Below, one piece after another: positions 6,406-61,717 of a stretch of DNA of 64,000 nucleotides. Origin of the DNA: a virus (lineage: Duplodnaviria > Heunggongvirae > Uroviricota > Caudoviricetes). The stretch lies in IMG/VR virus record IMGVR_UViG_3300026382_000007. The stretch is one strand, 5' to 3'. The position numbers and the translations under genes were made by a program. Within the stretch, counting starts at the first letter, position 1. The number at the start of each line of letters is the position of its first letter. The notes beneath the pieces are model-generated. The model was not told the DNA's origin. It ran no database searches and saw only the letters and a list, made by a program, of their open reading frames with translations.

Positions 6406-9400
6406 ATGGCATACGATATAAATTTAAACAGATATTACAACAGATTCAAAGACCAGCCACAATTTTCGGACTATAAAGTTCTATTATTCCGTGCTGGTGA
6501 TGCTCTGCAATCTGCAGAACTAAATGAACTTCAACAAACTCTTCACAACGAAAACTCTCACCTCGCAAGAAACTTTCTTGTTAATGGTGCAATTGTTTCA
6601 GGTGGTAAAGTTGAGATTGAAAGAACTTCTGCTGGGACAAATCCAGCTGGCGATGAGTTGTATAATCTAGATGTAAATGTTGAAGATTCTGTAATGTTCC
6701 TAAACACATACTATGTAAGTGTTAAAGAATCAGATCTTCAACTTGCTGGTAAATATTTACCAACACAGGACGACAATATCGGTGTTAAAATCACCTATAC
6801 TGAAGTTACAGAGGGACTAGATCCTTCTTTAAAAGATCCTGCAGTTGAAACTAGAAACTATGCACAACCTGGAGCTGGCCGTCTAAAAATTACTGGTGAG
6901 TGGATATTTGAAGCTGACTTCGTAGAAGTTGTTGGTGAAGAATTTATCCCATTATACCGAGTTATCAACGGTGAACTTGTGTCTCTTACTGGATATAGTG
7001 GTTTTGAAAGATCTGTTATCAACTTAATTGCTAAGTATGATAGAAATGCAAACGGAAACTATGTTATTGATGGATACGAGGTTTCATATCTTGAAAAACT
7101 TACAGACCTTGGGCCATTTGACCTTTCAATCGCGGAAGGAAATGCCAATGTTTACGGTTTCAACTATGAAACGGAAATCTCTCAAGAGTTAGAAATTGCT
7201 CCGCTGATAGATTTTGAATTAAAGCAATCAGAGCCAAATGAGTACGGTGCTGCGGGAATTCTTGCTAATGAGTATCCTGTAAGACACTTTCCAGTTCGTA
7301 AAGTGTTCCGTATATCCGGACAAAAACAAATTGGTACTACTTTCTCTGATAATTCTACTAATGATTATGAAGAAGTAACTCATGGTGGTTTCGCTGGTGC
7401 ATCTGATGAATTAGCATTACAACCCGTTATCTCACTTATTGATGTTCGTCAAGACGGAAAAACTTTCGTTGAAGGAACTGATTATCAACTAAGTGGTGAT
7501 TCAATTGCATGGTTGGGCGGTGTTGAGCCGGATCCATCTAGTACATACTATGTTTCATATAGATACAACTACACTGAAACTGCTGATGTTGATGACGGAA
7601 CATTCCCAACTGTTGGTGGTTCTATTTCTGCTGACAAAAAGAAGATTGAACTTCTAGGTTTCGCTCCAGGGACTTCAGTCTCTGTAGATTATGACTTTAC
7701 ACTTCAAAGATACGATGCTATCTTCCTTGATGCTAATGGTCAACTAAGTTCTACAAAGGGTGTTCCAGATGAGAACGATCCTCGTGTTCCAAGTCTTGAC
7801 AAAGATTACACACTGAAAGTAGCGGAAGTGTTACTTGGTGCAGATTTTGATCCTCAGGTTCAACAAGCTTCACTTCGTGTGTTTAAGATGTCTGATATTC
7901 AACTATTACTTGATAATATTAAGCAAAATGAGTACAATATTACTAGATTGGCACTTGCTTCTAATATGAGAGAAAGTCAACCAACTTCATTGTTCTTAGG
8001 ACAATTTGTTGATGATTTCGCTGACGATGACATGAGAGATGATGGTTATAGTGGTCTGAATCAAAATGCATTAACAATCGGTGGAAACTTGATTCTTGAC
8101 ATTGATTGGGAAACAATCGAAGCTTCAGCTGAATTACCAGCAGAGCAGATGACTATTGAAATGCCATCGACTCAAGCGGGAATTGTTTTAAATCAACCAC
8201 ATTGGACTAAGACTCGTCAAATTAATGAGTATCTGTTTAAATCTCCGCCATCGGCAAAGATTAACATTTATCCAAAAGTCTATCGTTGGGTTTCTAGAAC
8301 TTCGTATAGTACATTTGTTCGTTCAGTTCAAACTGCAACTCGTGGTATTAATAGTTGGACAACTCGTTACCATGTTTTTGGTACACATAGATGGCATTCA
8401 CATATATCGACAACTGTTTCTACATCTGTATCTCGTCAAATTCTAGGTCGTTCAGTTGGTCGTTCTTCAAGTATTTCAACTTCAAGAACTCCAGCAATCA
8501 TCCCGAGAATTAACATTCGTGTTTATTCTGATGACAATGACTTCAATAACAATGAAACTGTAGATATCTTTTTTGCAGACAAGCTTGTTAAGACAGTTAC
8601 AGCTAATGGGTCTGGTCGTATTATAAACGAAGTATTCCAAATTCCAGCTAATCAATATTCTGGGACAAAAGAAGTTCGTTGTACTGGTCGTGATTCTAAG
8701 ACTGAAGGAAAAACAATTTTCCAAGCAACACCTTTAAGTCGTCGAGTACAAACAACTGTTACGAACTGGTGGAGATGGGTTGTTCGTCGTCAAGGTATAA
8801 TTTGGAGAGAGGCTGATCCAGTTGCCCAATCATTTATCCTTGACGACACGGTTGCTATTGATGGTATCAATGTATATTTCGATGTACTTCCAACAACTGC
8901 GACTTCTTGTGTAATTTGTGAAACTACTGCGGGACTTCCAGATAAGACAAAGGCACTTGTTTCTGCGACTCTTGAACCTCAGTTCTTAAACAACACTGGA
9001 GCTACTTTCTTTTCAATGCCGAATAAAATCGCATTAACGAAAGGTAAAGAATATGCATTCATTGTTATCTGTAAAGATGCGGTTGGAACTGTTAAAGTTG
9101 CTCGTTTAGGTGAGAGAGATGACGAAGCTGGAAAGTGGATCACCTCTCAAGCTTATTCAATTGGTGTTTTATTCAATTCATCAAATGGTTCAGCATGGAC
9201 TCCTCTACAAGAGGAAGATATGAAGTTCCAAATCGTTTCTTGTAACTTCGTGCCACAGTACGAATTCCAGTTCCCTGAAGCTTCTGTTGTAGACGCAACT
9301 GACCTTATGGTTCTTGCGAATGCGAAGGTTGAAGAAGGAACGACAATTCAGTACAAAGTTCAATTACTTGACCGTGCTGATGACAACGAATACTTTGTAA

Positions 9401-49942: not shown

Positions 49943-50026
49943 GGGTTTTCAAAGTCGTTCGGATACGGCAGCAAGACTGTAAATCTTGTCTCTAGGGGAG
50001 TGGTTCGAGTCCACGGGAACCCACCA
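49943..50026 (+). tRNA. tRNA-Tyr(GTA), type II, CCA encoded
   Basis: acceptor gggtttt/ggaaccc, anticodon arm caaga-ctGTAaa-tcttg, T-loop ttcgagt. Confidence 0.7.
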
Positions 50027-50032
50027 TTACAT

Positions 50033-50109
50033 CTGGATATAGCTCAGTTTGGGAGAGCACTTGCTTTGGGAGCAAGGGGTCGTAGGTTCAATCCCTACTA
50101 TTCAGACCA
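50033..50109 (+). tRNA. tRNA-Pro(TGG), CCA encoded
   Basis: acceptor ctggata/tattcag, D gctc-agtttggga-gagc, anticodon loop ttTGGga. Confidence 0.7.
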
Positions 50110-50116
50110 TTTTTAT

Positions 50117-50190
50117 TGAGGTATAGTTCAACGGCAGAACATGCGACTTTGACTCGCATAATATAGGTTCGATCCCTATTACCTCATCCA
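50117..50190 (+). tRNA. tRNA-Gln(TTG), CCA encoded
   Basis: U1-A72 acceptor tgaggta/tacctca, anticodon loop ctTTGac. Confidence 0.7.
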
Positions 50191-50191
50191 T

Positions 50192-50266
50192 CCTTGGGTA
50201 GCTCAATGGTAGAGCAGTCGGTTGATAACCGGAAGAATTGTGGTTCAATTCCACTCCTGAGGACCA
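50192..50266 (+). tRNA. tRNA-Ile(GAT), CCA encoded
   Basis: acceptor ccttggg/cctgagg, anticodon loop ttGATaa. Confidence 0.65.
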
Positions 50267-50276
50267 ATACTAATAT

Positions 50277-50351
50277 ACCACGGTCGTCTAATGGTTAGGA
50301 CACCATACTTTCAATTTGGTAACCGGAGTTCAATTCTCCGTCGTGGTACCA
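50277..50351 (+). tRNA. tRNA-Glu(TTC), CCA encoded
   Basis: acceptor accacgg/tcgtggt; anticodon loop ctTTCaa (one stem mismatch). Confidence 0.6.
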
Positions 50352-50361
50352 GAATTACAAT

Positions 50362-50437
50362 GGGGTGTTAGCTCATCTGGGAGAGCACTAGGTTTGCAAC
50401 TTAGAGGTGCAGGGTTCGAGTCCCTGACACTCCACCA
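50362..50437 (+). tRNA. tRNA-Ala(TGC), CCA encoded
   Basis: acceptor ggggtgt with G3:U70, anticodon loop ttTGCaa. Confidence 0.8.
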
Positions 50438-50479
50438 ATTTATTATTCAGCATTCAGCCCATTAATAGTGGGTTAAATG

Positions 50480-50554
50480 GTGAGTATAGTACAATGGTTA
50501 GTACGGAGGGTTGTGAACCTTCTAATTCCAGTTCAATTCTGGATACTCACACCA
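50480..50554 (+). tRNA. tRNA-His(GTG), CCA encoded (G at -1 present)
   Basis: acceptor gtgagta/tactcac perfect, anticodon loop ttGTGaa, g at 50479. Confidence 0.75.
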
Positions 50555-50555
50555 T

Positions 50556-50630
50556 GGCTCGGTCGTCTAATGGTTAGGACAACTGGTTTTCGACCAGTTA
50601 ATCAGAGTTCAATTCTCTGTCGAGTCACCA
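50556..50630 (+). tRNA. tRNA-Glu(TTC) second copy (divergent), CCA encoded
   Basis: acceptor ggctcgg/tcgagtc, perfect anticodon stem actgg/ccagt, loop ttTTCga (G37 unusual). Confidence 0.55.
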
Positions 50631-50651
50631 ATTTATTTATAAGGCTATGAC

Positions 50652-51125
50652 ATGAAAGATATGTATATGGAAGATGTTGGCAGTTTGTCAAGTGAAACAT
50701 GTGATTTTATATCTGAAAAGCTGAAACAATTTAACACACGGCTGACTGATGAACAAGTTAAGGATCTCGTTGAGAACCAAATTTGGGACGCAGTTTTTGA
50801 AAAACTAGAAAACTTTTGTGACAATGATTACAGAAGTCAAATGGGATAAGGGGGTAATGCTGAAAAGCAACATCGTGGAGGAAGAAGTAACGGTCAATAT
50901 GTTAATGACAGTTTCGGCGAAAAAGTATTTCTTCAATCTTCTTACGAACTATTATGTTCCGAGATACTGAACGAAATGGGCATATTATGGGTTAGACCAA
51001 AATCACTTCCATATGAGATAGATGGTAAAAAGAGAAAATACTTCCCTGATTTTCTCCTAGTGGATTATGGTATCTATTTAGATCCCAAAAATGATTTTTT
51101 GATTAAAAAGATATTCCTAAAATAA
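50652..51125 (+). pseudogene. Vsr/DUF559-like PD-(D/E)XK endonuclease (homing-endonuclease-like), interrupted by in-frame TAA at 50847
   Basis: ORF 50652-50849 continues in same frame after stop; downstream segment ..YEIDGKKRKYFPDFLLVDYGIYLDPK resembles Vsr motif PGRPDFVFP. Confidence 0.4.
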
Positions 51126-51194
51126 GAGCAGTAGAAGAACAAAATGATGTTTCCGTATTCATTTTATCGAAACAAAACATAACAACAGATTTCA

Positions 51195-51270
51195 TGGCGA
51201 GTATCATAATGGCTAATGACACCACCTCATAAGTGGTTCTATGCTGGTTCAAATCCAGTCTCGCCAACCA
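51195..51270 (+). tRNA. tRNA-Met/Ile2(CAT), canonical cloverleaf, CCA encoded
   Basis: acceptor tggcgag/ctcgcca, anticodon arm accac-ctCATaa-gtggt. Confidence 0.7.
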
Positions 51271-51286
51271 AACCAAAAACAAACAT

Positions 51287-51357
51287 GCCAACCGATCAGG
51301 GATCAGTCAGTGCTCATAACACAGACCAGCTTAGATCGTTACTAAGGGTTGGCACCA
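51287..51357 (+). tRNA. atypical tRNA-like (CAT) with reduced D-arm and A54..T58 T-loop (atcgtta)
   Basis: acceptor gccaacc/ggttggc + CCA; anticodon loop ctCATaa; only ~14 nt between acceptor and anticodon stem. Confidence 0.4.
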
Positions 51358-51360
51358 AAT

Positions 51361-51434
51361 GCGGACATAGTATAAAGGGATTATGGCGGTCTTCCAAACC
51401 GTGGATGCGAGTTCGAGCCTCGCTGTCCGCTCCA
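51361..51434 (+). tRNA. tRNA-Gly(TCC), CCA encoded
   Basis: acceptor gcggaca/tgtccgc, anticodon arm gcggt-ctTCCaa-accgt. Confidence 0.65.
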
Positions 51435-51439
51435 AACAT

Positions 51440-51514
51440 ACTCGGTTATTTCAGTGGTAGAATGTCTCCCTTACAAGGAGGAGGTCGTTGGTTCGAGTCC
51501 AACACCGAGTACCA
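51440..51514 (+). tRNA. tRNA-Val(TAC), CCA encoded
   Basis: acceptor actcggt/accgagt, anticodon loop ctTACaa. Confidence 0.65.
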
Positions 51515-51528
51515 AACACAACAAACAT

Positions 51529-51604
51529 GCTCTTCTAGCTTATGTGGTACAAGCATCGGTTTGAAGAACCGAGGATTGAAGTTCAACTCTTCAGGGGAGC
51601 ACCA
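51529..51604 (+). tRNA. tRNA-Phe(GAA), CCA encoded
   Basis: acceptor gctcttc/ggggagc, D gctt..aagc, anticodon arm tcggt-ttGAAga-accga. Confidence 0.75.
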
Positions 51605-51736
51605 TATTTTAATTATAAAGGAATTATCATGAGAGATAAGGATAATAGAAAAATCACACAATCAAAAAAGTCGTACGATCGCAAGAAAGTACAAAAACAT
51701 CGTTGGCAGGATTAACATTCAATTAATCCAAAATAT

Positions 51737-51811
51737 ATGCATGTAGCTCAGAGGCAGAGCAATGGTCTCCAAAACCATAGGTCGAGATTTCGAAATTCTC
51801 CATGTATGCCA
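51737..51811 (+). tRNA. tRNA-Trp(CCA), CCA encoded
   Basis: A1-U72 acceptor atgcatg/catgtat, discriminator G, anticodon arm atggt-ctCCAaa-accat. Confidence 0.7.
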
Positions 51812-51813
51812 AT

Positions 51814-51885
51814 GCCCAAACTGACGGATTCAGACTCGAGGTTTCGACCCTTGATGTCAAGGTTCAACTCCTTGTTTGGGCTCCA
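51814..51885 (+). tRNA. tRNA-Arg(TCG)-like with short non-canonical D-arm, CCA encoded
   Basis: acceptor gcccaaa/tttgggc perfect; anticodon arm cgagg-ttTCGac-ccttg; D region only 16 nt. Confidence 0.5.
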
Positions 51886-51979
51886 CTTCAATTTACACAA
51901 TCAAAAACAAACTCAATTATCATCATTAAATATCGTCATAATATACAAAGTTCCCTGAGAAAACTCATAACTAAAATTT

Positions 51980-52005
51980 AAGAAAACTCCTGTATAATAG
52001 TAATG
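51980..52005 (+). promoter_or_regulatory. extended -10 promoter (TGnTATAAT)
   Basis: ctcctgTATAATag at 51991-51998 upstream of 52037 gene. Confidence 0.4.
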
Positions 52006-52036
52006 TTTATAACAGGATTTCCGAACAGAGGCGAAT

Positions 52037-52219
52037 ATGACAATTAAGTTCATACACAATAGAAAAACAGTTTTAGAATACACGGTTGCTAACTTAAGCG
52101 ATCCAATTGTTCCAAAAAAACACGACCAACTAGATATTGATGGTCAAAACATGGTTATTGTTGATTTTTCAGCATTCCAAGATTTAGTAGTATTCAAGGT
52201 GGAAACATGCGAAAAATAA
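52037..52219 (+). CDS. hypothetical small protein
   Basis: 60 aa; upstream TGnTATAAT promoter at 51991-51998. Confidence 0.35.
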   Translation: MTIKFIHNRKTVLEYTVANLSDPIVPKKHDQLDIDGQNMVIVDFSAFQDLVVFKVETCEK

Positions 52220-52683
52220 CACACATAATAGTTCATGAAAGTGACTCAGGATGGGGTGATGCCTCGGCTATAAATAGTTGGCATTTAGATAGAGGCTGGA
52301 ATGGTATTGGATATCACAAGGTTATCTTGAACGGAAAAAGAACCTCAAAATCAAAATATAAAGAGTCTGAAGATGGTATCATTGAGTGTGGTAGGATGCT
52401 ACATTTGAGTGGTGCTCATGCAAGAGGTTATAACAAACAATCAATTGGATTGTGTCTGATCGGAAAACATGGTAAATTCACGAGCTTACAAATGAGTACT
52501 TTAATGGATGAAATAGTCAGGCTAATGGGTGCTTATGATATCCCTACATCGAATGTATTGGGCCACTATGAAATTCCTCTTAGTGGTGGAAAAACTTGTC
52601 CGGAAATTGATATGATGATTTTCAGAAATGAATTGCAAATGAGACTTGATGCTCTTGATGCAATGAACAAATTTGGAGCATAA
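52207..52683 (+). CDS. N-acetylmuramoyl-L-alanine amidase (T7 lysozyme / PGRP family) - candidate endolysin
   Basis: IIVHESD..GYHKVI..GAHARGYNKQSIGLCLIG..HYEI..KTCPE aligns with T7 lysozyme zinc ligands and catalytic residues. Confidence 0.8.
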   Translation: MRKITHIIVHESDSGWGDASAINSWHLDRGWNGIGYHKVILNGKRTSKSKYKESEDGIIECGRMLHLSGAHARGYNKQSIGLCLIGKHGKFTSLQMSTLMDEIVRLMGAYDIPTSNVLGHYEIPLSGGKTCPEIDMMIFRNELQMRLDALDAMNKFGA

Positions 52684-52684
52684 C

Positions 52685-53239
52685 ATGTTAAAAAACACAA
52701 CAATAATTATTCAAGCACATAAGGTGATTGAACCTACATTATCTCAGGCACTAGCTATTTGCCCAAATGTCATAATTTTTAATGACAAGGCGAAATTTAA
52801 ACATGATTCGGCAACAGTTGTGAGAGGAAGAGGGTTTTCTGGAAAATATGAAGATGCATATGAAATGTGTTTACCATTAGTGCAAACAGAATTTGTTTGT
52901 AGAATAAATGGTGGAGATGAGATTTTGGATCTTCAGGAGCCAACTGGTGACATTTGGCTCGCTAGATATAATAAAGATCACCCAGACCATAAAATGGACA
53001 AAGATTATTTTAAACATGCTGGTGCTTCTATTATAAGTGGTTCAGTAATAAAAACTGAAATTATGAAAGATCTTCTTGATGGGTACACTGTTGAAAATAA
53101 GGCGAAGTGGGGAAAATTTGGAAAATATTGTGGTGATATAATTTTGAATTCAGAATTCAAAATTTCACAAGCTGAGACTCAAAGCCTAGATTTCACATTC
53201 AAAATGTGGGGTTCAAGAGAAAATTCATATAAAGTATAA
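52685..53239 (+). CDS. hypothetical protein
   Basis: RBS ggagcataacATG. Confidence 0.35.
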   Translation: MLKNTTIIIQAHKVIEPTLSQALAICPNVIIFNDKAKFKHDSATVVRGRGFSGKYEDAYEMCLPLVQTEFVCRINGGDEILDLQEPTGDIWLARYNKDHPDHKMDKDYFKHAGASIISGSVIKTEIMKDLLDGYTVENKAKWGKFGKYCGDIILNSEFKISQAETQSLDFTFKMWGSRENSYKV

Positions 53240-53466
53240 GAATTTTGTAATTCTTTTTGTGAAAAGGGGGTTTTGCTCCCTTCAACCATTAAATAGAAGT
53301 ATAAATAACAACAAGGAACTAAGATGAAGTCTGATAAAAGACCCACTTTAAGCTGTAATTTGAATTCGCTGAATTCGGATATGATTAAACTTTAGTTCAC
53401 CCTCTATCTCAGGGTGAACATTCACTCTGGGAGCAATTTTTAAATTCCCCCAAATTTCTTATCAAT

Positions 53467-53512
53467 CTTAAGTAAGCTCTAAGCTAACTTTAGGTATAAT
53501 ATACTATATGAA
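53467..53512 (+). promoter_or_regulatory. conserved promoter cassette (no obvious CDS downstream)
   Basis: aagtaagctctaagctaactttaggTATAATatactatatg; -10 53495-53500. Confidence 0.5.
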
Positions 53513-53563
53513 AAGTAAATGGTTATTCCGCTTCTTTTTATCGTTCTTTAAAGTTTATATGAT

Positions 53564-53608
53564 CTTTAAGCTGACTCTAAGTTAGTTTACGGTATAATAT
53601 AGGTAACG
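53564..53608 (+). promoter_or_regulatory. conserved promoter cassette copy (ctgactctaagttagtttacgg form) 1 of 3
   Basis: tttaagctgactctaagttagtttacggTATAATataggt; -10 53593-53598. Confidence 0.5.
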
Positions 53609-53679
53609 AAAGTTAAGTAACACGAATGAAGATTACAAAGGTTTATTTACCTTTGACTTAACTTTTAAATCTATCAAAG

Positions 53680-53724
53680 CTTTAAGCTGACTCTAAGTTA
53701 GTTTACGGTATAATATAGGTATCT
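53680..53724 (+). promoter_or_regulatory. conserved promoter cassette copy 2 of 3 (identical 38-mer)
   Basis: -10 53709-53714. Confidence 0.5.
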
Positions 53725-53863
53725 TAATAAGATGATAAGGTTTGTAAGGTGACTAAAGAGGTTCGAATCCTCCCTTGATTTTCAAGAGATTTTAAATGTT
53801 GGAAAAGTTGCCTCAACTCAGGTTCGAATCCTGACATTTTATTAAGTTTCAAATCTTTCAAAA

Positions 53864-53908
53864 CTTTAAGCTGACTCTAAGTTAGTTTACGGTATAATAT
53901 AGGATAAA
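53864..53908 (+). promoter_or_regulatory. conserved promoter cassette copy 3 of 3 driving GC-rich noncoding region
   Basis: -10 53893-53898. Confidence 0.5.
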
Positions 53909-54280
53909 CTCTTTAATCAGGGCATCGATAAGCGGTCTAAGTCTTTTGACTGTGACCGCAACACGGTGTCTTTATTAAAGAGTTTAGTGTTTAGCTGACA
54001 CGACACTCTGAGTTTTGAAGTCAGAACCTTGGGAATGTAGCATAGAGGTAAATGTAACTGCCGTGGAGGCAGAGAAGAGGGATCGTTACCCTCCTTTCTC
54101 TACAAGGGTTTTGAGTGAAAAATGTTGATCTTTTCGAGCACACTAGTCACTGCTCGAAAACTCAACATGAACGAATAGAAAGTCACTGTGCTGGGATCAC
54201 CTGGATTTCAGTGAAACTTCTAACCGAGTTTGCAAGGTAGCACCTTGCGACTCAATGAATTACGAAATTTATTATATGAT

Positions 54281-54325
54281 TAAGCTTCTTTTAAGGAAGT
54301 TTACAGTATAATAACGGTAACTTAA
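54281..54325 (+). promoter_or_regulatory. promoter variant inside noncoding region
   Basis: aagcttcttttaaggaagtttacagTATAATaacggtaactt; -10 54307-54312. Confidence 0.4.
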
Positions 54326-55805
54326 AAGGAAACTATAAGAACTTCATTAAGTTCATATCGGCATCCAGGGATAGTGTCTACTGCAAAGTATCGGCATCCG
54401 TGGCTAGTGTTTATGAATTTAATGAAGTGCTTAGTACATAATGTCTGGCTTGGTTGTAGGTTTGCCCTATGTCAACGAAGACAAAGTGGAACGGGATTTC
54501 CGGACGCATATATTCGTAAAGATACTCTCAGTAATGGGACGAAAGGGGGATTGATAATCCTTCGCGGAAGTAATTCCGAACAAGTATGCAAAACAGAAAA
54601 CTCATTAAGACATCATCACGGTGGTGTTCGAATTGAACGATGAAGTACGAACTAAACAGTCTGGCCAACGGTGACACTGTTTGATCCCGCAAGGATCTAG
54701 TACATGCAAAATTCATAAGAAATGACAAGTTTAATCTGTAGTTCATTGGTCCGAGTCGTAACTGGCAAGGGCTTATGTTCAGTCTACATGAAAAAAGTCG
54801 CAAGGCTGAGTATCGTGATGGACGGTGAAAGTAGTGTGTTGCATGAAATCACAAAAGGTGGGAAGCATTCTGAGGCTCAAAAGGCTTTGGAACTTCTGAG
54901 GGAGCCCATCTTTATCAATCCGTAATAGCTTAAAGATAAGCATTTGTATTTGGCACAAAAGATTCAGGGTCATACCTGATTACTAATAAAAAACGCAAAG
55001 TCTCCCTCACCGTCACTTGAAAGTGGCTTAAGTCTACACCCATAATGTGGGAATGAAGACATGTTGATGCTCGCAAGGCGGATATATGTTTAGTGGAAAG
55101 CAAAGTTATCCGGCTCGCACTGGAGAATGGCTCGCAAGGTCAGACTGAGTAGAACATTAGAGTAGAGTGACGGGATGCAAGAAAAGCTACTTGTTGGCGA
55201 AAGCCTAAACAAAAGCAGTCATTGGAAATACTCGACCGAAAGGATGAGTGGATAACACTGGGAAACAATAATCCAGTCAAAGGTTCCAGCTGAAAGCTAT
55301 AATCTCAGGCTTCAAAATAAACTTTAAGAGTTTATTGAAATAAATTTGTGTAGCAGTGTTCGACTCCCGACCCACACAGAGTGGGTATTAAACGGGCAAC
55401 TGTTATTGGCACTGGTGTGGGATCACGAGGATTATGAAAAGAATAATCGCAAATTTATTTCAATAAGTTCTTAATTTACTCAAAATGAAGAATGGAATGT
55501 AGGCTTATCAAGTTGAAAGTGTGAGAACTGGATGTGGAATTGGCTTATGAAACTAGAAGAAATTGTTTCTAACGAAAGTACGGATGAATGAATGAATATG
55601 AGATGCAAATTGGGTTTACCAGATAATTCTCTCCGGAACTCTTAGTAGAAAAGAACATCACTGAGGTTGTATATTCAGTGATTGACTTTCAAACTTTTAT
55701 TATATGCTTTGAATGGGTCAGAAGATAATGATGGAGGGTGCGCACCTGAAGTCAGTGATGATATGACAAATCACTTTGAAAATGATAATATTTAAGTTTT
55801 CAGAA

Positions 55806-55837
55806 GTGGTGAGGTTCGATCCCTCACCTTTGCACCA
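55806..55837 (+). ncRNA. tRNA 3'-half-like element (T-arm + acceptor 3' strand + CCA) with no matching 5' half nearby
   Basis: tgagg-ttcgatc-cctca then cctttgc-a-cca; no gcaaagg-type 5' partner found within 100 nt. Confidence 0.3.
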
Positions 55838-55851
55838 ACAAATTTTAAATG

Positions 55852-55924
55852 TGCGGGGAACAGCGGATGTAATTTGGGCTCATAACCCAGACCCTGTGGG
55901 TTCAACTCCCACCCACCGCAACCA
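55852..55924 (+). tRNA. atypical initiator-like tRNA(CAT) with reduced D-arm
   Basis: anticodon stem with three consecutive G-C pairs (ttggg/cccag), loop ctCATaa, T-arm gtggg-ttcaact-cccac, CCA; acceptor tgcgggg/caccgca with one mismatch. Confidence 0.4.
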
Positions 55925-55929
55925 AATAT

Positions 55930-56006
55930 TGTATACGATTTCTCCAGGCGAGAAAGCTTGACTGTTAATCAAGAAGTGACTGGTTCGAGTCCAGTGTATA
56001 CAGCCA
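55930..56006 (+). tRNA. tRNA-Asn(GTT), CCA encoded
   Basis: acceptor tgtatac/gtataca perfect, D tttc..gaaa, anticodon arm cttga-ctGTTaa-tcaag. Confidence 0.75.
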
Positions 56007-56021
56007 AACAACTTAAATTTA

Positions 56022-56101
56022 AGAACTCTGTCCTTGATCGGGATTAATATGGTACGAGCGGAAATGATCATCCGTGGACTGTTCGACTCAGTCGAGTTCT
56101 T
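56022..56101 (+). ncRNA. tRNA-like element, 80 nt, no CCA, fold unresolved
   Basis: perfect 7-bp acceptor agaactc/gagttct and T-arm gactg-ttcgact-cagtc; internal arms not assignable by eye. Confidence 0.3.
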
Positions 56102-56350
56102 AAATTTGGGTTGATTACCTGAAGAGTCGCTATTGTTTTCGACTCAAAAAATACACAAACACGATAGTAAGTGATCGATACACACCACTGTTGGCATATC
56201 GCACAGACGATGCAGCGAGTTCCGGCTACACAGGGCAGAGGGAAACATCTAGAAGGTTTCATCGCAATTGTACATTGTGCGATTAACAAACTAAAATGAG
56301 CAAAAACTCGACCCACTTAAAGATTTAATCAATCTCGGGTCGTTTCAAGT

Positions 56351-56427
56351 GGCCTACTAACTCAATTGGCTAGAGTGTCTCGTTGTCTGCGAGAAGGTTA
56401 TCGGTTCGAGTCCGATGTGGGTCGCCA
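56351..56427 (+). tRNA. tRNA-Asp(GTC), CCA encoded (U37 unusual)
   Basis: acceptor ggcctac/gtgggtc, D actc..gagt, anticodon arm tctcg-ttGTCtg-cgaga. Confidence 0.55.
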
Positions 56428-56935
56428 TTTTCAAAATTGAATAAAGTAACTAACTAGAGTGGGAATGCTTGGATTGAGTTCTAGCACATACCTTAATAAT
56501 GTTCTCGCATCCTTGATTTAGCGATCACGGGACAAGTACACATGCTCCTCTATGATACAATATGCATCACTTGTATCATAAATGTTTGTTATTTTATTCA
56601 GTCTTGCAAGAATAAACTGAAGTGTCGGAATATCAAGAACTGCACTATAAAGTACGATTATCTGGTGAGATGCATACTGCTGAACCTACTCTAAAAGGGT
56701 TATGGCACCAATGGAAGATCATTCTGGACGGCTCCAGACACAGACTTGAAATCTGTAGGCATTTTAAAAGCAGTGTGGGGATCGACACCTCGTTCTTCCT
56801 CCATTTTAAATATAAACATAAGGAAATACAATGAAAACGACAAAATTAACGAAAACGACAAAACTTACAGACACATCTGAAAGAGATAGTTAGGTAAAAC
56901 TAGCTATGGGGTGTGTCTTTAATAAAAATAAAGAT

Positions 56936-57010
56936 GCATCCGAAGCTTAGTTGGCGAAGCACACGACTTTTAATCGTGGGAACAGAGTTCGATTCTCTGC
57001 GGTTGCACCA
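56936..57010 (+). tRNA. tRNA-Lys(TTT), CCA encoded
   Basis: acceptor gcatccg/cggttgc (one mismatch), anticodon arm cacga-ctTTTaa-tcgtg. Confidence 0.65.
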
Positions 57011-57018
57011 TTCAATGT

Positions 57019-57094
57019 GGATGTGTAACTCAATTGGCAGAGTACTCGGCTTTTAACCGAGAGGTTGTGGGATCATTGCCCACCGCATCCACCA
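57019..57094 (+). tRNA. tRNA-Lys(TTT) second divergent copy with A54..T58 T-loop (atcattg)
   Basis: acceptor ggatgtg/cgcatcc, anticodon arm ctcgg-ctTTTaa-ccgag. Confidence 0.55.
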
Positions 57095-57095
57095 T

Positions 57096-57170
57096 GCTTA
57101 ATTAGTATAGTGGCGATTATCCTCGTTTTGTAATCGAGGGACAGGTGTTCGATTCACCTATTAAGCTCCA
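57096..57170 (+). tRNA. tRNA-Thr(TGT), CCA encoded
   Basis: acceptor gcttaat/attaagc perfect; anticodon loop ttTGTaa; weak D-stem. Confidence 0.55.
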
Positions 57171-57182
57171 AATTTTTAAAAT

Positions 57183-57259
57183 GCCGGATTAGCTCCAACT
57201 GGAAGAGCATTTCACTTGTAATGAAAGGGCTATCTGTTCGAATCAGATATCCGGCACCA
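57183..57259 (+). tRNA. tRNA-Thr(TGT) second copy, CCA encoded
   Basis: acceptor gccggat/atccggc perfect, D gctc..gagc, anticodon arm tttca-ctTGTaa-tgaaa. Confidence 0.7.
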
Positions 57260-57744
57260 TTTATAGTATAAAGAACATTTTGGTGATTTTTGTACTGTTA
57301 AATGTTCACACTAAATCAAAAACAATGGTAGGGTAAATGAGTATGCATGCTTCCGCTCATCAGTCCAGAAAATTGAGAAGTGTAAAAAGGTCTATTGTAG
57401 CCTCAGAACCTTGAAAGGGAGAGGGAATATGCCTTGGAGATATCCAAAAGCTTTTTGGCGAAAATTTGTGCAAAACAAAATCCGCTCCAATCAACTCAAT
57501 TATATACAAGGGATTTTATAACAGTCACCTGATCTTGTATATAATTGAGCGGATTTCGACCTAAATGATTGCCTCCGACTTCAACAAGACAAAGGCTCAA
57601 GAAAATCATTTGTTAGGGTTGTGCCCATCTTACACGGTTCTTGTTCCGGTGTAGGCTCTGGGGAACTCTCTGAGTCGTCCGCTCCAACAAACGACTGCCC
57701 TCTATTTGAACTTATTGTAAGGTCATTCAACGGTGGTTTTTTAT

Positions 57745-57831
57745 GCTTCTCTGGTGGAATTGGTATACACGGTGGTCTTAGAAACCACTGCTCGAAAGGG
57801 CTTCCGAGTTCGAGTCTCGGGGGAAGCACCA
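57745..57831 (+). tRNA. tRNA-Leu(TAG), type II, CCA encoded
   Basis: acceptor gcttctc/gggaagc, anticodon arm gtggt-ctTAGaa-accac, variable hairpin gctc-gaaa-gggc. Confidence 0.7.
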
Positions 57832-57865
57832 TAATTTTTATTATAAACTAAAACAAGGAAGGCAA

Positions 57866-57979
57866 ATGTCGCACATAAATGCAAAAATTGCTGAACTTGA
57901 GAAAGACGGTAAACGAGAAAACATAGATTTTCGTATAGTATATTTTTCAGAATCAGCAGAATTAAAAATGTTGAAATAA
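57866..57979 (+). CDS. small protein (37 aa), below the ORF-track cutoff
   Basis: RBS aaggaaggcaaATG; MSHINAKIAELEKDGKRENIDFRIVYFSESAELKMLK. Confidence 0.25.
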   Translation: MSHINAKIAELEKDGKRENIDFRIVYFSESAELKMLK

Positions 57980-58103
57980 CAAAATTCAAAAAAGGAGTCA
58001 CGAATGTTGACAAGGTTAAGATCATTATCAAGATGTTTATGTTTAAGATTATTGTCAATTCGTGATGGATTGAGTTGTAGCTAAACTGCTATAATTTCAA
58101 TTC

Positions 58104-58189
58104 GGATAGTGCAAGCAAGGTGCTTAAGGTGGTTGCTAACCACTGGGGTGTAAACAGCCTGATGGGTTCAATTCCCATACTATCCTCCA
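58104..58189 (+). tRNA. tRNA-Ser(GCT), type II, CCA encoded
   Basis: acceptor ggatagt/actatcc perfect, anticodon arm ggtgg-ttGCTaa-ccact, long variable arm. Confidence 0.65.
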
Positions 58190-58280
58190 TCTTCAATTAG
58201 TACATTCAGTACAACCTTCAAAAACACAAACACTTTATTATTCATTCACAAATTTACTTGGTTATTCAAGCAACACATAT

Positions 58281-58367
58281 GCTCTCATGGTGGAATTGGC
58301 ATACACAATGGACTTAAAATCCATGGCTCGGAAGGGCTTCTCGGTTCAAATCCGAGTGGGAGCACCA
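58281..58367 (+). tRNA. tRNA-Leu(TAA), type II, CCA encoded (no intron)
   Basis: acceptor gctctca/tgggagc, anticodon arm atgga-ctTAAaa-tccat, variable hairpin gctc-ggaa-gggc. Confidence 0.7.
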
Positions 58368-58381
58368 TACTAAACAAATGT

Positions 58382-58457
58382 GCCGATGTACTTCAACGGA
58401 TAGAAATTCCGACTTCTAATCGGAAAGTTGGGGGTTCAAGCCCCTCCATCGGTACCA
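58382..58457 (+). tRNA. tRNA-Arg(TCT), CCA encoded
   Basis: acceptor gccgatg/catcggt, anticodon arm tccga-ctTCTaa-tcgga. Confidence 0.65.
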
Positions 58458-58458
58458 T

Positions 58459-58533
58459 GTATGATTGGCCAAATGGTAAGGCACGGGATTGCAAATCCTG
58501 AGATTGTCAGTTCGAGTCTGACATCATGCTCCA
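58459..58533 (+). tRNA. tRNA-Cys(GCA), CCA encoded
   Basis: acceptor gtatgat/atcatgc, anticodon arm cggga-ttGCAaa-tcctg. Confidence 0.65.
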
Positions 58534-58567: not shown

Positions 58568-59095
58568 ATGAACAAATTAGAATTCAATGAAGAAAACTTC
58601 GACATGTTAGTCGAGAGGATGCACTTCCTCAGGGAAGAAGTTAAAAAATACAAATATGACCATTTAACTGGTTTAAAACTCAGAAAAGATTTTGATGAGA
58701 AGCTTGATAGGATGTATGAAGCTTATGAATTTGAAGATCAACCATTTGTTTTCATTATGGCAGATGCTGATGGTCTACACAATACTAATAGGACTCTAGG
58801 TTATGATGCTGGTGATGAGCTTCTTATAACTATATCGAGTGAGCTCCGTGCGGAGTTCGGTGATTGTAGAAATGTTGATATATTTCGAATATCCGGCGAC
58901 GAATTTGCGGTTTTGATGACTGGTGATTTGTGTGGCGATGCAATTGACGAAAAAATGAAAAATGTCACAAGTTGCTCATATGCATCAGTCTTCATGGATG
59001 AGACTGAATGTCATCCAAGCCCATCATCTGTTTTTAAGTGTGCTGATAAAAAACTCACTGAAGTAAAGAAAACTAAAAAGCCTGAAAGAATTTAA
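58568..59095 (+). CDS. GGDEF-domain protein (diguanylate-cyclase-like, SGDEF variant)
   Basis: DHLTGL, FVFIMADADGLHNTNRTLGYDAGDELL and RISGDEFAVLM align with PleD-type GGDEF core (DQLTGL / LIDIDFFKKIND..GDEVL / RYGGEEFVVIM). Confidence 0.65.
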   Translation: MNKLEFNEENFDMLVERMHFLREEVKKYKYDHLTGLKLRKDFDEKLDRMYEAYEFEDQPFVFIMADADGLHNTNRTLGYDAGDELLITISSELRAEFGDCRNVDIFRISGDEFAVLMTGDLCGDAIDEKMKNVTSCSYASVFMDETECHPSPSSVFKCADKKLTEVKKTKKPERI

Positions 59096-59858: not shown

Positions 59859-60137
59859 ATGAGACCACTCGGATTTAAAGTAATTATAGAAAAGAAAACG
59901 GTGCAAGCGGAACAAACTTCCGGAACACTTATTATTGAACTTGAAAAGTCAACTTCAGATGCTGACGATGTTAGTGAGGGAACTGTAATTTCAGTAGGAA
60001 ATGAAGTAAACTCTGTGATACATATGATAGATGTTGGTGATACCGTGAAATATGAAAATCATGGTGGGTATGAAGTGAATATTGACGGTAAAGACCTGAT
60101 TATAGCTGATATCAAAAACATTCTGGTGGTATTATAA
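59859..60137 (+). CDS. groES: co-chaperonin GroES/gp31-like
   Basis: 92 aa; MRPLGFKVIIEK..GTVISVG..VGDTVKY pattern parallels GroES; immediately upstream of GroEL with ATGA overlap. Confidence 0.6.
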   Translation: MRPLGFKVIIEKKTVQAEQTSGTLIIELEKSTSDADDVSEGTVISVGNEVNSVIHMIDVGDTVKYENHGGYEVNIDGKDLIIADIKNILVVL

Positions 60138-61717
60138 TGAAAGATATTTTATATGGTTCAGAAGCGAGAGAACTTCTACAAGTTGGTGTTAATAAATTAG
60201 CAAAGGCGGTTGCGGTGACTATGGGACCTCTTGGTCGTAATGTTCTAATTCAGAGGGATAATGAAAATCCATTTCTCACCAAGGACGGTGTTACGGTAGC
60301 TGGTGAAGTTCAATTGAAGAATCCAGTTGAAAATATGGCAGCAAGTCTAGTGAAAGAAGTTTCATCAAATACGGCATTCGAAGCTGGTGATGGTACGACT
60401 ACATCTACTGTTTTAACTGATGCAATTTTCACACACGGTGTTGATGGCATCAAAAGTTCAACGAATATCGTTGAAATGAAAAAGGGTATGGATTCAGCGG
60501 TTCGTGAGGTTGTAAGCTACATTGAAATGAATAGTCGTAAGATTACATCTCATGAAGAAATTAAGCAAATTGCTACTATTTCAGCGAATTCAGATGTTCC
60601 TATGGGTCAGATGATTGCGGATGCTATGGAAGCTGTTGGTGAAGACGGGATTATCAATATCGAAGAAAATAACGGTGTGACGGATGAACTTGCCTCAACT
60701 AAGGGCTTCAAATTCAATCGTGGTTACATGAGTCCAAACTTCGTGACAAATCCTGGTAAAGAAATTGCTGAACATGAAAATCCTTTCATTTTAGTAACTG
60801 ATCAGCGAATTGGCCATTTAGCACACATATTACCTATTCTACAAAAGGTTCAGGAAACTGCAAGACCACTTATAATTTTAGCGGATGACTTTGACCCTGA
60901 AGCACTTAACACAGTTGTAGTGAATAAGGTTCGTGGTATCATGAATATGACGGTTGTAAAGTTACCAGGGTTTGGTGACGGAAAACGAGATCAGATGATT
61001 GACATTGCTATGACTTCAGGTGCTACTATTGTTGGTGCTGAAACTGGTCGTACATTTGAGTCACTGACTTTAGAAGATCTCGGTGAAGCGAAGCGAGTTG
61101 TAGTTGAGAAACAGAATACTATTATCATCAACGGAAAGGGATCAAGTACTGAAGAAATTACTCAGCATAAAAATGCCTTAAAAGTACAAATTGAAGCACT
61201 CCCAGATGGTGATGCTAAAGTGTCTCTTAAATCTAGATTATCCCGCCTTTCAGGTGCAGCAGCAGTTATCAGAGTTGGTGCTCAGACTGAACTTGAAATG
61301 AGAGAAAAGAAAGATAGATTTGATGATGCGGTTGCGGCAACAAAAGCAGCAGTGGCTGAGGGTATTGTTATTGGTGGTGGTTCTGCTTTGGCTAGGGCTT
61401 CACATTTCATCAAAGTGAATAGACAATCAACCAGTTCTGATTTTGACAAAGGGTTCGATGTGATTCTTGAAGCATGTTTTGCTCCTATAGAACAAATTGC
61501 AAATAATGCTGGTCGTAACGGCATTGAGATCGTTGGTGATCTTTCTGAACATGAGAATGAAAACTTCGGTTGGAATGCTCTTACTGATACTTATGAAGAT
61601 TTATTTGAATCAGGTGTCATCGATCCGCTCAAAGTGACTAGAATTGCAATAATCAATGCTTGTAGTTGTGCTTCTACTCTTTTAACTACTGAAACGGTAA
61701 TTTATACAGAAGATTAA
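60137..61717 (+). CDS. groEL: chaperonin GroEL (Cpn60)
   Basis: AVAVTMGPLGRNVLI..FEAGDGTTTSTVLT..equatorial domain motifs, 526 aa. Confidence 0.85.
   Translation: MKDILYGSEARELLQVGVNKLAKAVAVTMGPLGRNVLIQRDNENPFLTKDGVTVAGEVQLKNPVENMAASLVKEVSSNTAFEAGDGTTTSTVLTDAIFTHGVDGIKSSTNIVEMKKGMDSAVREVVSYIEMNSRKITSHEEIKQIATISANSDVPMGQMIADAMEAVGEDGIINIEENNGVTDELASTKGFKFNRGYMSPNFVTNPGKEIAEHENPFILVTDQRIGHLAHILPILQKVQETARPLIILADDFDPEALNTVVVNKVRGIMNMTVVKLPGFGDGKRDQMIDIAMTSGATIVGAETGRTFESLTLEDLGEAKRVVVEKQNTIIINGKGSSTEEITQHKNALKVQIEALPDGDAKVSLKSRLSRLSGAAAVIRVGAQTELEMREKKDRFDDAVAATKAAVAEGIVIGGGSALARASHFIKVNRQSTSSDFDKGFDVILEACFAPIEQIANNAGRNGIEIVGDLSEHENENFGWNALTDTYEDLFESGVIDPLKVTRIAIINACSCASTLLTTETVIYTED

What the first reader, a model, noticed from the sequence alone, without database searches (positions are those of the whole stretch)
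53906..55800. About 1.9 kb of GC-rich, ORF-free, structured sequence inside the tRNA array - candidate large phage ncRNA(s) or intron-like element
In an AT-rich genome this stretch is visibly GC-richer. It has no protein-like ORF: the track ORFs 54374-54643, 54528-54803 and 54722-54925 have random Cys/Trp-rich composition. It is dense in stable hairpins, for example 12-bp arms aaactctttaat...attaaagagttt at 53907/53975, gcaaggt-agc-accttgc at 54230, cgagca...tgctcg at 54133, acccac-acaga-gtgggt at 55369. Copies of the conserved promoter sit at 53864-53908 and 54281-54325. The region is flanked by tRNA genes, and just downstream it ends in a tRNA 3'-half-like element with CCA (55806-55837). I looked for RNase P P4 motifs, a tmRNA tag frame and group II domain V; none is convincing by eye. 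The remaining candidates are a group I intron or split tRNA gene, or novel structured phage RNA(s).
Basis: partly seen in the sequence, partly recalled or inferred. Interest (0 to 1): 0.7.

Follow-up and report, generated by a model that had tools for sequence, protein, structure and literature searches.

The report
Phage GOLLD RNA inside tRNA array
The core of this ORF-free stretch is a GOLLD RNA, a known giant structured phage RNA that forms RNA-only cages and has no known function, here carrying a degenerate tRNA-like insert, so the find is real but belongs to a described family.

Summary
The core of the 1.9-kb stretch is a full-length GOLLD RNA (Rfam RF02032, 224 bits against a threshold of 150, E 4e-62). 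Its conserved 3' domain is 54853-55311. A roughly 360-nt 5' domain at about 54495-54852 is supported by covariation. A CCA-less tRNA-like insert (54919-54987) sits in the variable linker. Three related viral or metagenomic loci (L160, L166, L120) share this architecture. They also share a hairpin-closed domain of about 150 nt just after the GOLLD 3' end (55324-55474).

The rest of the stretch splits into four parts:
- a diverged copy of the phage's repeated promoter (54256-54317) followed by a 170-nt leader hairpin;
- upstream "unit A" (53905-54280), strongly structured (z -7.3), built around a pseudo-tRNA, with no homologue found;
- a 330-nt spacer (55476-55805) that is not significantly structured;
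- a tRNA 3'-half remnant (55806-55838).

No intron, tmRNA, RNase P, 6S or ROOL match was found. GC enrichment is modest (39.7% against 37.3%). GOLLD RNAs in tRNA arrays with embedded (pseudo-)tRNAs are already published. This is a new member of a known kind. Its function is unknown, and cage formation is inferred by homology only.

The parts
53842..53903 (+). Third exact-core copy of the phage's 62-nt promoter-like repeat (CTGACT, 16-nt spacer, TATAAT ending at 53898). It would drive unit A.
53905..54280 (+). Unit A: a 376-nt ORF-free, strongly structured segment. It consists of an 82-nt 5' hairpin (53905-53986) and then a multibranch domain containing a pseudo-tRNA. No homologue was found in any fetched locus or in cultured phages.
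   Evidence: MFE -134.5 kcal/mol, z -7.3; no homologue
54031..54101 (+). Degenerate tRNA-like element inside unit A. It has a 5-nt anticodon loop, an aberrant T-loop (ATCGTTA) and no encoded CCA.
   Evidence: RF00005, 31.6 bits; ARAGORN calls it only at a relaxed threshold; no CCA; the sequence read directly
54256..54317 (+). Diverged fourth copy (68% identity) of the promoter repeat. The -10 hexamer TATAAT is intact at 54307-54312 but the -35 region has changed. It is the candidate promoter for GOLLD.
   Evidence: The sigma-70 scan did not call it, so promoter activity is inferred.
54326..54494 (+). Leader between the promoter copy and the conserved start of GOLLD. It contains a long hairpin (arms 54336-54357 and 54412-54433, 91% complementary) that encloses a 25-nt direct repeat. 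Relatives lack this extended leader.
   Evidence: z -4.1; I4, D6
54495..54852 (+). GOLLD 5' domain, variable across the family. It is conserved and covarying among the window, L160, L166 and L120. The 5' boundary was set by alignment to the env-38 GOLLD sequence used for cryo-EM.
   Evidence: 96 pairs, 95.8% of cells paired, 41 pairs with compensatory change against 3-8 in the slid controls
54853..55311 (+). GOLLD conserved 3' domain. It matches the full Rfam RF02032 model (positions 1-416).
   Evidence: 224 bits, GA 150, E 4e-62 and 2.1e-63; 102 pairs, 34 with compensatory change
54919..54987 (+). tRNA-like insert in the GOLLD variable linker. The anticodon loop reads AUUUGGC (UUG). It has two acceptor-stem mismatches, a degenerate T-loop and no CCA.
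   Evidence: RF00005, 33 bits; not called by ARAGORN at default settings
55186..55221 (+). Extended GNRA-capped hairpin (GCTACTTGTTGGCGAAAGCCTAAACAAAAGCAGTCA). It occupies a 17-nt insertion relative to the Rfam consensus and is nearly invariant in all four subfamily members.
55324..55474 (+). Hairpin-closed appended domain of about 150 nt that starts 12 nt after the GOLLD 3' end. Its closing stem is conserved, with compensatory changes, in L160, L166 and L120.
   Evidence: I2: 25-nt arms, 92% complementary; (z -6.6; the same architecture appears in independent folds of all four)
55476..55805 (+). AT-rich spacer. It is not significantly structured and is not conserved in relatives.
55806..55838 (+). 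tRNA 3'-half remnant (T-arm, 3' acceptor strand and CCA) 11 nt upstream of tRNA-Met. It is a 71% paralogue of 53758-53799.
   Evidence: (D3)

Best explanation
The centre of the finding (about 54495-55311, + strand) is a gene for a GOLLD RNA. GOLLD is a known, roughly 800-nt, two-domain structured non-coding RNA of phages and prophages.

In this window it lies in the tRNA array of an uncultured phage of about 155 kb. A diverged copy of the phage's repeated promoter and a 170-nt hairpin leader lie upstream. A conserved hairpin-closed domain of about 150 nt lies downstream. The variable linker of the GOLLD carries a tRNA-shaped but degenerate, CCA-less insert.

Shown here:
- family membership;
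- covariation support for both domains;
- the insert, and the same synteny in three relatives.

Inferred:
- The RNA is transcribed from the 54256-54317 promoter copy, and possibly also by read-through from the three exact promoter copies upstream.
- It is probably co-transcribed with the downstream tRNAs, because no terminator follows it. It would then be released by processing at the long flanking hairpins and at tRNA boundaries.
- By homology to the env-38 and S. agalactiae GOLLD cryo-EM structures, it self-assembles into a 12- to 14-subunit RNA-only cage. The linker with its tRNA-like insert would point into the cavity.
- My preferred guess at function is that the cage holds or displays a tRNA-shaped cargo during infection, as storage or as a decoy connected with tRNA or translation. 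That is speculation. The function of GOLLD is unknown.

The remaining parts are not GOLLD. Unit A is a separate promoter-driven structured segment built around a pseudo-tRNA. 55476-55805 is spacer. 55806-55838 is a tRNA remnant.
For: - Rfam RF02032 matches 54853-55311 at 224 bits (GA 150), E 4e-62, model positions 1-416, not truncated.
- Three related loci have the same architecture: GOLLD hits of 191, 218 and 220 bits, each with an embedded tRNA hit. They are 70-75% identical to the window over 620-741 nt, reaching into the 5' domain.
- 5' domain: 96 consensus pairs, 95.8% of cells paired, 41 pairs with compensatory change against 3-8 in the slid controls, and 0 of 500 shuffles as good.
- 3' domain: 102 pairs, 34 with compensatory change.
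- The 5' end aligns to the start of the env-38 GOLLD. The core is about 817 nt.
- Context is a 26-tRNA array on the same strand.
- Published work describes GOLLD in phage and prophage tRNA arrays with embedded tRNA or pseudo-tRNA in the linker, and 12- and 14-mer cages (PMC12286853; PMC6582537; PMC12990946).
- No terminator-like site lies between 55312 and 55850 on the + strand.
- The closing stem of the appended 3' domain is conserved with compensatory changes in all four members.
Against: - No expression data exist for this uncultured phage.
- The sigma-70 consensus scan does not call the 54256-54317 promoter copy, because its -35 region has diverged.
- Cage formation is extrapolated from two other GOLLDs whose 5' domains differ in sequence. 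Stoichiometry is known to vary with 5'-domain architecture.
- Covariation rests on only four sequences, two of them close to each other (L160 and L166).
- Unit A and the leader have no homologues, so their structure is supported by thermodynamics only.
Confidence: 0.9

Rival explanations
1. Unit A (53905-54280) is an independent, previously undescribed structured phage RNA of about 375 nt. It would be expressed from its own exact promoter copy, stabilised by a 5'-terminal hairpin, and built around a tRNA-like core.
For: - An exact promoter repeat ends 2 nt upstream of it.
- Its folding energy is very unusual (z -7.3, 0 of 100 shuffles as good).
- It has a tRNA-like core at 31.6 bits.
- It has no ORF.
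Against: - No homologue was found in any of the fetched loci, including the three closest GOLLD relatives, or in 50,697 cultured-phage records. No covariation test is therefore possible.
- The surrounding region is full of decayed tRNA pieces and duplicated promoter units. It may be an eroded tRNA transcription unit or simply a 5' leader of the GOLLD transcript.
Confidence: 0.25
2. The stretch is a group I or group II intron, or a split or intron-interrupted tRNA gene whose 3' half is 55806-55838.
For: - A tRNA 3' half with CCA lies at the downstream edge.
- tRNA-like pieces occur upstream.
Against: - No intron family matches, even at E<=10.
- ARAGORN with introns allowed up to 300 nt finds nothing.
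- The required 5' acceptor strand GCAAAGG is absent from the + strand anywhere between window 45072 and 60199.
- The interior is fully accounted for by GOLLD.
- The 3' half has a decayed paralogue at 53758-53799. It also sits in the position held by an intact tRNA-Met in L160. Both point to a gene remnant.
Confidence: 0.01
3. The long flanking hairpins (53905-53986, 54336-54433, 55324-55474) are not parts of functional RNAs. They would be processing or stability signals, such as RNase III-type sites or 5' stabilisers, that release GOLLD and the tRNAs from a polycistronic precursor.
For: - The stems are near-perfect and run to about 13-26 consecutive base pairs in the predicted folds.
- They lie immediately after the predicted transcription starts and immediately after the GOLLD 3' end.
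- No terminator lies downstream.
- The 55324-55474 closing stem is conserved while its interior is not.
- A similar long hairpin follows tRNA-Asn at 56001-56121 (I3).
Against: - There is no cleavage data.
- The interior of the 3' appended domain keeps a similar three-hairpin architecture in all four relatives. That suggests more than a bare cleavage stem.
- This explanation is compatible with the main one rather than exclusive of it.
Confidence: 0.4
4. The stretch encodes small proteins (ORFs 54374-54643, 54528-54803 on the minus strand, and 54722-54925).
For: ORFs of 67-91 aa exist.
Against: - There is no significant Pfam match. The best is PAP2_C at E 0.007 and 17 bits, against a cutoff of 27.
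- The ORFs overlap one another and the covarying GOLLD helices.
- No gene was called here on the source contig.
Confidence: 0.01

Closest known systems
GOLLD RNA, Rfam RF02032 (Weinberg et al. 2009). Structural references are env-38 (PDB 9MEE, a 14-mer cage) and S. agalactiae GOLLD (PDB 9L0R, a 12-mer).
   Same: - Full-length match to the conserved 3' domain.
- A structured 5' domain of about 360 nt whose start aligns with env-38.
- A variable linker between the domains.
- Total length of about 817 nt.
- Phage origin and position next to tRNA genes, including a downstream tRNA-Met.

   Different: - Sequence is divergent. Against 119 other IMG/VR GOLLD loci, blastn aligns only the last 75-145 nt, and none shares this 5' domain by nhmmer.
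- It has a 17-nt insertion forming an invariant GNRA hairpin (55186-55221).
- It has an extra conserved 3' domain of about 150 nt and, in this phage only, a 170-nt hairpin leader.
- Multimerisation is untested.
Mycobacterium / Mycolicibacterium tRNA-array GOLLD with an embedded tRNA-Phe or pseudo-tRNA (Behra et al. 2019, PMC6582537; Morgado et al. 2020, as cited in PMC12990946)
   Same: - GOLLD sits inside a large horizontally mobile tRNA array, with tRNAs on both sides.
- A (pseudo-)tRNA sits inside the GOLLD linker J13/15.
- Expression of the embedded pseudo-tRNA was not detected in M. aubagnense.

   Different: - A different host lineage and a different 5' domain.
- Here the insert lacks CCA although all 26 array tRNAs encode it.
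- The anticodon of the insert differs among the four relatives: UUG, UUU, UUU or UUA, and UAG.
ROOL RNA (RF03087)
   Same: It is a large ornate phage or prophage RNA, often near tRNA islands, that forms an RNA-only cage with a disordered inward-facing linker.
   Different: It has an unrelated sequence and secondary structure, and there is no Rfam match here even at E<=10.

Membership tests
GOLLD RNA (RF02032) | Covariance-model score at or above the curated gathering score, over the full model | tested here: met
   224 bits against GA 150; model positions 1-416 of 416; not truncated; E 4e-62
GOLLD RNA (RF02032) | Helices of the conserved 3' domain are maintained by compensatory substitutions | tested here: met
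   Across four subfamily members: 102 consensus pairs, 34 with changes on both sides
GOLLD RNA (RF02032) | A structured 5' domain of about 400 nt that is poorly conserved across the family | tested here: met
   96 pairs, 41 compensatory, 95.8% paired against 35-40% in the slid controls. Only L120, L160 (L161 and L165 are re-fetched pieces of the same two contigs) and L166 hit the nhmmer profile. The start aligns with env-38.
GOLLD RNA (RF02032) | A variable linker between P13 and P15 that sometimes holds a tRNA | tested here: met
   The insertion lies between model positions about 60 and 140 and holds an RF00005 hit of 33 bits at 54919-54987.
GOLLD RNA (RF02032) | Phage or prophage context close to tRNA genes | tested here: met
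   26 tRNAs lie at 49943-58533 on the same strand. Phage proteins surround it.
GOLLD RNA (RF02032) | Self-assembly into a dihedral homo-oligomeric cage (12- or 14-mer) | not testable with these tools
   Needs in-vitro transcription followed by mass photometry or cryo-EM
GOLLD RNA (RF02032) | Inter-subunit kissing loops (L20 with J13/15; palindromic L21a and L21b) | not tested
   The env-38 sequence recovered from the supplement is 816 nt rather than 833 nt (machine-read PDF). Residue-level mapping was therefore unreliable.
Canonical tRNA gene (the insert at 54919-54987) | Cloverleaf detected by standard tRNA finders | tested here: inconclusive
   RF00005 gives 33 bits (GA 29), with two acceptor-stem mismatches flagged. 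ARAGORN misses it at default settings and calls it only at ps80.
Canonical tRNA gene (the insert at 54919-54987) | Canonical T-loop, and the 3' CCA that this phage's tRNAs encode | tested here: not met
   The T-loop reads GTCATAC. The tail is ...TTACTAATAAA with no CCA, whereas 26 of 26 array tRNAs end in CCA.
Group I / group II intron | Match to the intron covariance models | tested here: not met
   No hit at E<=10 in 53200-56500
tmRNA / RNase P RNA / 6S RNA / ROOL | Match to the family covariance model | tested here: not met
   The only hit is a 14.4-bit tmRNA_permuted match (GA 47, E 5.7) over the tRNA remnant and tRNA-Met. ARAGORN in tmRNA mode finds nothing.
Split or intron-containing tRNA (3' half at 55806-55838) | A complementary 5' acceptor strand with D and anticodon arms upstream | tested here: not met
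   GCAAAGG is absent from the + strand anywhere between window 45072 and 60199. ARAGORN with introns up to 300 nt finds nothing.

The most novel reading that the evidence does not exclude
This GOLLD lineage (the window, L160, L166 and L120) could be an extended variant whose functional unit is larger than the Rfam or cryo-EM GOLLD. It would consist of the core, a conserved 3' domain of about 150 nt, an invariant extra GNRA hairpin, and a linker insert selected for tRNA shape rather than decoding. The insert lacks CCA, has decayed acceptor and T arms, and shows three or four different anticodons across the four relatives.

That would point to the tRNA-like insert acting as a caged decoy or cargo rather than a stored tRNA. 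Separately, the neighbouring unit A (53905-54280) could be an undescribed promoter-driven structured RNA.
Probability: 0.2. Interest if true: 0.55.

Novelty: new member of a known kind. Interest (0 to 1): 0.3.

Why it matters
GOLLD is among the largest and most elaborate bacterial or phage non-coding RNAs. It forms megadalton RNA-only cages, and its function is still unknown.

This instance adds a divergent lineage from large uncultured phages that also encode GroEL. Comparing its four members gives small clues about function:
- The linker insert keeps a tRNA-like shape while losing tRNA identity features.
- An extra conserved domain follows the published 3' end.

These features suggest constructs worth testing for their effect on cage stoichiometry or cargo. 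It does not open a new class. For annotation, the point is that the "ORF-free gap" in this tRNA array is explained.

Tried and rejected
- Megablast and blastn of the region and both flanks against 50,697 cultured-phage records. Only a 74-nt hit to a Mycobacterium prophage GOLLD start and tRNA-Asn hits were found.
- The search for related loci with the upstream 188-aa ORF and with the amidase gave no useful relative. GroEL did bring in L120.
None is close to the window.
- Subfamily-specific 18- to 20-mers found L160 and L166. The other loci they returned were chance or coding matches (L162-L164, L169-L182) or pieces of contigs already in hand (L161, L165).
- An exact-protein lookup recovered only the identical source contig, so it gave no sequence variation to use.
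- nhmmer of unit A, the leader, the 3' domain and the spacer against all loci gave no homologues.
- ARAGORN at relaxed thresholds, with introns allowed and in tmRNA mode found only weak pseudo-tRNAs.
- Residue-level mapping onto the env-38 cryo-EM numbering was abandoned. The sequence recovered from the PDF is 17 nt short.
- Weinberg 2009 and Morgado 2020 are not held in the library. They are cited only through papers that reference them.
- A consensus fold of the 55476-55805 spacer with its positional equivalents gave 0 pairs.
Full report
**Observation**

The window carries 26 tRNA genes on the + strand between 49943 and 58533. A 3,964-nt gap separates tRNA-Arg (ending 51885) from tRNA-Met (starting 55850). 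Two small protein genes occupy 52207-53239. Everything from 53240 to 55849 has no credible ORF.

- The longest ORFs are 89, 91 and 67 aa and have no significant Pfam match.
- The gene caller used on the identical source contig (ENA ERZ27262631 k141_170235, 154,878 bp) called nothing between window 53240 and 57866.
- GC enrichment is real but modest. It is 39.7% against 37.3% for the window, the 89th percentile of equal-sized windows. The GOLLD core is 42.5% and the last 330 nt are 33.9%.
- Folding energy is far below shuffled controls for 53905-54280 (z -7.3), 54326-54500 (z -4.1) and the first 190 nt after 55311 (z -6.6). It is not for 55476-55849 (z +1.3, -0.2, -1.1).

However, it lumps several distinct elements together and overstates the GC signal.

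**What it is**

Infernal against Rfam 15 gives a full-length, untruncated match to RF02032 (GOLLD) at 54853-55311 on the + strand. The score is 224 bits against a gathering score of 150, E 4e-62. The Rfam model covers only the conserved 3' domain of GOLLD. A large insertion in the variable linker region of the model holds an RF00005 tRNA hit at 54919-54987 (33 bits).

No group I or II intron, RNase P, 6S, ROOL or credible tmRNA match appears, even at E<=10.

**Relatives**

No cultured phage is similar at the DNA level. These align with the window only over the last 75-145 nt.

Three real relatives were found.

| Locus | Source | GOLLD bits | Embedded tRNA hit | Identity to window |
|---|---|---|---|---|
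| L120 | 140-kb viral contig, found via a 53%-identical GroEL | 191 | tRNA at 8054-8124 | 70% over 620 nt |
| L160 | 48.7-kb viral contig | 218 | tRNA-like at 8202-8270 | 75% over 690 nt |
| L166 | 5.4-kb metagenome contig | 220 | tRNA at 2511-2578 | 72.6% over 741 nt |

All three lie in tRNA arrays. L160 also shares the window's promoter-like repeat. Other loci returned by the motif scans were chance or coding matches, or pieces of contigs already fetched.

**5' domain and boundaries**

The four sequences align from about window 54495 onward.

- RNAalifold predicts 96 pairs in the 5' domain, 41 of them with compensatory changes.
- On the pair-count test, 95.8% of cells are paired against 35-40% when partners are slid. 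There are 41 compensatory pairs against 3-8 in the slid controls, and 0 of 500 shuffles reach the observed values.
- The 3' domain gives 102 pairs, 34 of them compensatory.
- An nhmmer profile of this 5' domain finds nothing in the other GOLLD loci. This agrees with the published statement that the 5' region is poorly conserved.
- The env-38 GOLLD sequence from the cryo-EM paper's supplement begins GGATGGCCGCTATGGTCGTCAAATA. This resembles the window sequence GGGATTTCCGGACGCATATATTCGTAAAGATA that starts near 54491. That places the core at about 54495-55311, roughly 817 nt.

**Subfamily-specific features**

1. *Linker insert.* All four members carry a homologous tRNA-shaped insert, with a conserved D-arm (TAGCTTAATGGTAGAGCA). 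The anticodon loop differs among them: UUG in the window, UUU in L160, UUU or UUA in L166, and UAG on a class-I body in L120.
   - The window copy has two acceptor mismatches and a degenerate T-loop, and ARAGORN does not call it at default settings.
   - It lacks CCA, whereas all 26 array tRNAs encode CCA.
   - ARAGORN at default settings finds an embedded tRNA in only 1 of 101 other IMG/VR GOLLD loci.
2. *Extra hairpin.* A 36-nt GNRA-capped hairpin (55186-55221) fills an insertion relative to the Rfam consensus. It is nearly invariant in all four.
3. *Appended 3' domain.* A domain closed by a 16- to 26-bp stem begins 12-17 nt after the GOLLD 3' end in all four. In the window the arms are 55324-55348 and 55450-55474.
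   - The closing stem shows compensatory changes, and independent folds give a similar three-hairpin interior.
   - About a quarter of other GOLLD loci also show a long-range stem just after the 3' end. A 3' appendage may therefore be more general than the Rfam model suggests.

**The rest of the 1.9 kb**

- *Promoter repeats.* Five promoter-like repeats lie in tandem between 53468 and 54317. Three have an identical core, and the copy at 54256-54317 is 68% identical with an intact TATAAT. The sigma-70 scan calls the three exact copies but not the diverged one. An own promoter for GOLLD is therefore inferred, and read-through from upstream is possible.
- *Leader.* In the relatives a TATAAA-containing promoter-like motif sits about 50-60 nt before the env-38-equivalent start. 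The window instead has a 170-nt leader with a 22-nt-arm hairpin.
- *Unit A (53905-54280).* It starts 2 nt after an exact promoter copy. It opens with an 82-nt hairpin and contains a CCA-less pseudo-tRNA (31.6 bits). It has no detectable homologue.
- *tRNA 3'-half remnant (55806-55838).* It has no 5' partner. It is 71% identical, together with the following spacer, to 53758-53799. It also sits in the position held by an intact tRNA-Met in L160. I read it as a decayed tRNA gene.
- *Spacer (55476-55805).* It has no conserved counterpart in the relatives.

**How it most likely works**

Shown here: a bona fide GOLLD gene with both domains under structural selection.

From the literature:
- GOLLD RNAs occur in phages and prophages near tRNA islands.
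- Their expression rises during phage lysis.
- env-38 forms a D7 14-mer cage whose disordered linker faces the cavity, and S. agalactiae GOLLD forms a 12-mer.
- Embedded tRNAs have been proposed to be stored or shielded inside the cage.
- Mycobacterial tRNA-array GOLLDs carry an unexpressed pseudo-tRNA.

Inferred here:
- GOLLD is co-transcribed with the downstream tRNAs, because no terminator is found.
- The long flanking hairpins act in processing or stability.
- The RNA assembles into a cage with the tRNA-like insert inside.

The variable anticodon and the missing CCA suggest that shape rather than decoding is under selection. That fits a cargo or decoy role better than storage of a usable tRNA. 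This is speculation.

**Comparison and novelty**

Every major feature has been published for GOLLD: the tRNA-array context, the embedded (pseudo-)tRNA, the variable 5' domain and the phage origin. This is a new, divergent member of a known kind. The only part that could be new is unit A, and the only evidence for it is thermodynamic.

**Verdict**

- The finding is real and biologically meaningful.
- A standard Rfam scan explains it.
- Interest is modest.

Noticed in passing
window 56713-56802 (+): An unannotated tRNA-Sec-like tRNA. RF01852 gives 43.9 bits (GA 47), E 6.9e-7. It has a 6-bp D-stem with a 4-nt loop, a long variable arm and an encoded CCA, but the anticodon is UGA (Ser) rather than UCA. 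It is conserved, with the same anticodon loop, in two otherwise unrelated GOLLD-bearing viral contigs (L104 2595-2694 minus strand, L025 5048-5141). ARAGORN and the Rfam gathering scan both miss it. It resembles the allo-tRNAs of Mukai et al. (PMC5389517). The array otherwise lacks tRNA-Ser(UGA).
   Followed up: partly
window 53758-53799 and 55811-55852: A 42-nt direct repeat, 71% identical, made of a tRNA 3' end plus the spacer ATTTTAAATGT. It brackets the roughly 2-kb block holding the promoters, unit A and GOLLD. It could be the trace of a duplication, or of an insertion into a tRNA gene. (D3)
   Followed up: no
window 53468-53903: Four tandem promoter-like repeat units lie 98-184 nt apart. 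Each is followed by only a short hairpin or by decayed tRNA pieces (two GGTTCGAATCC T-arm remnants at 53759 and 53820). A fifth, diverged copy lies further on at 54256-54317. The same promoter core recurs at 9 sites across the window and in L160.
   Followed up: partly
L166 about 3050-3330 and L120 about 8590-8900: A segment of about 300 nt downstream of GOLLD is highly conserved between these two relatives. It includes a T-arm-like TTGGGTTCRATTCCCA. It has no Rfam hit and is absent from the window and from L160. It may be another structured RNA.
   Followed up: no
L120 18350-18835 and L155 17098-17413: The related phages that encode GroEL carry tmRNA genes (57.8 and 50.1 bits) about 5.5-7 kb downstream of GroEL. 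The equivalent position lies beyond the end of this window.
   Followed up: no
window 45013-45837 (-), 58568-59095 (+), 59859-61717 (+): The phage encodes a flagellin-like protein (Pfam Flagellin_N and Flagellin_C), a GGDEF-domain protein directly after the tRNA array, and GroES/GroEL. These come from the precomputed Pfam annotation of the identical source contig.
   Followed up: no
window 56001-56121 (+): Another long hairpin (28-nt arms, 82% complementary) lies immediately after tRNA-Asn. It shares the AGTTCTTAA(A/T)TT motif with the 3' arm of the post-GOLLD domain. (I3, D15, I10)
   Followed up: no
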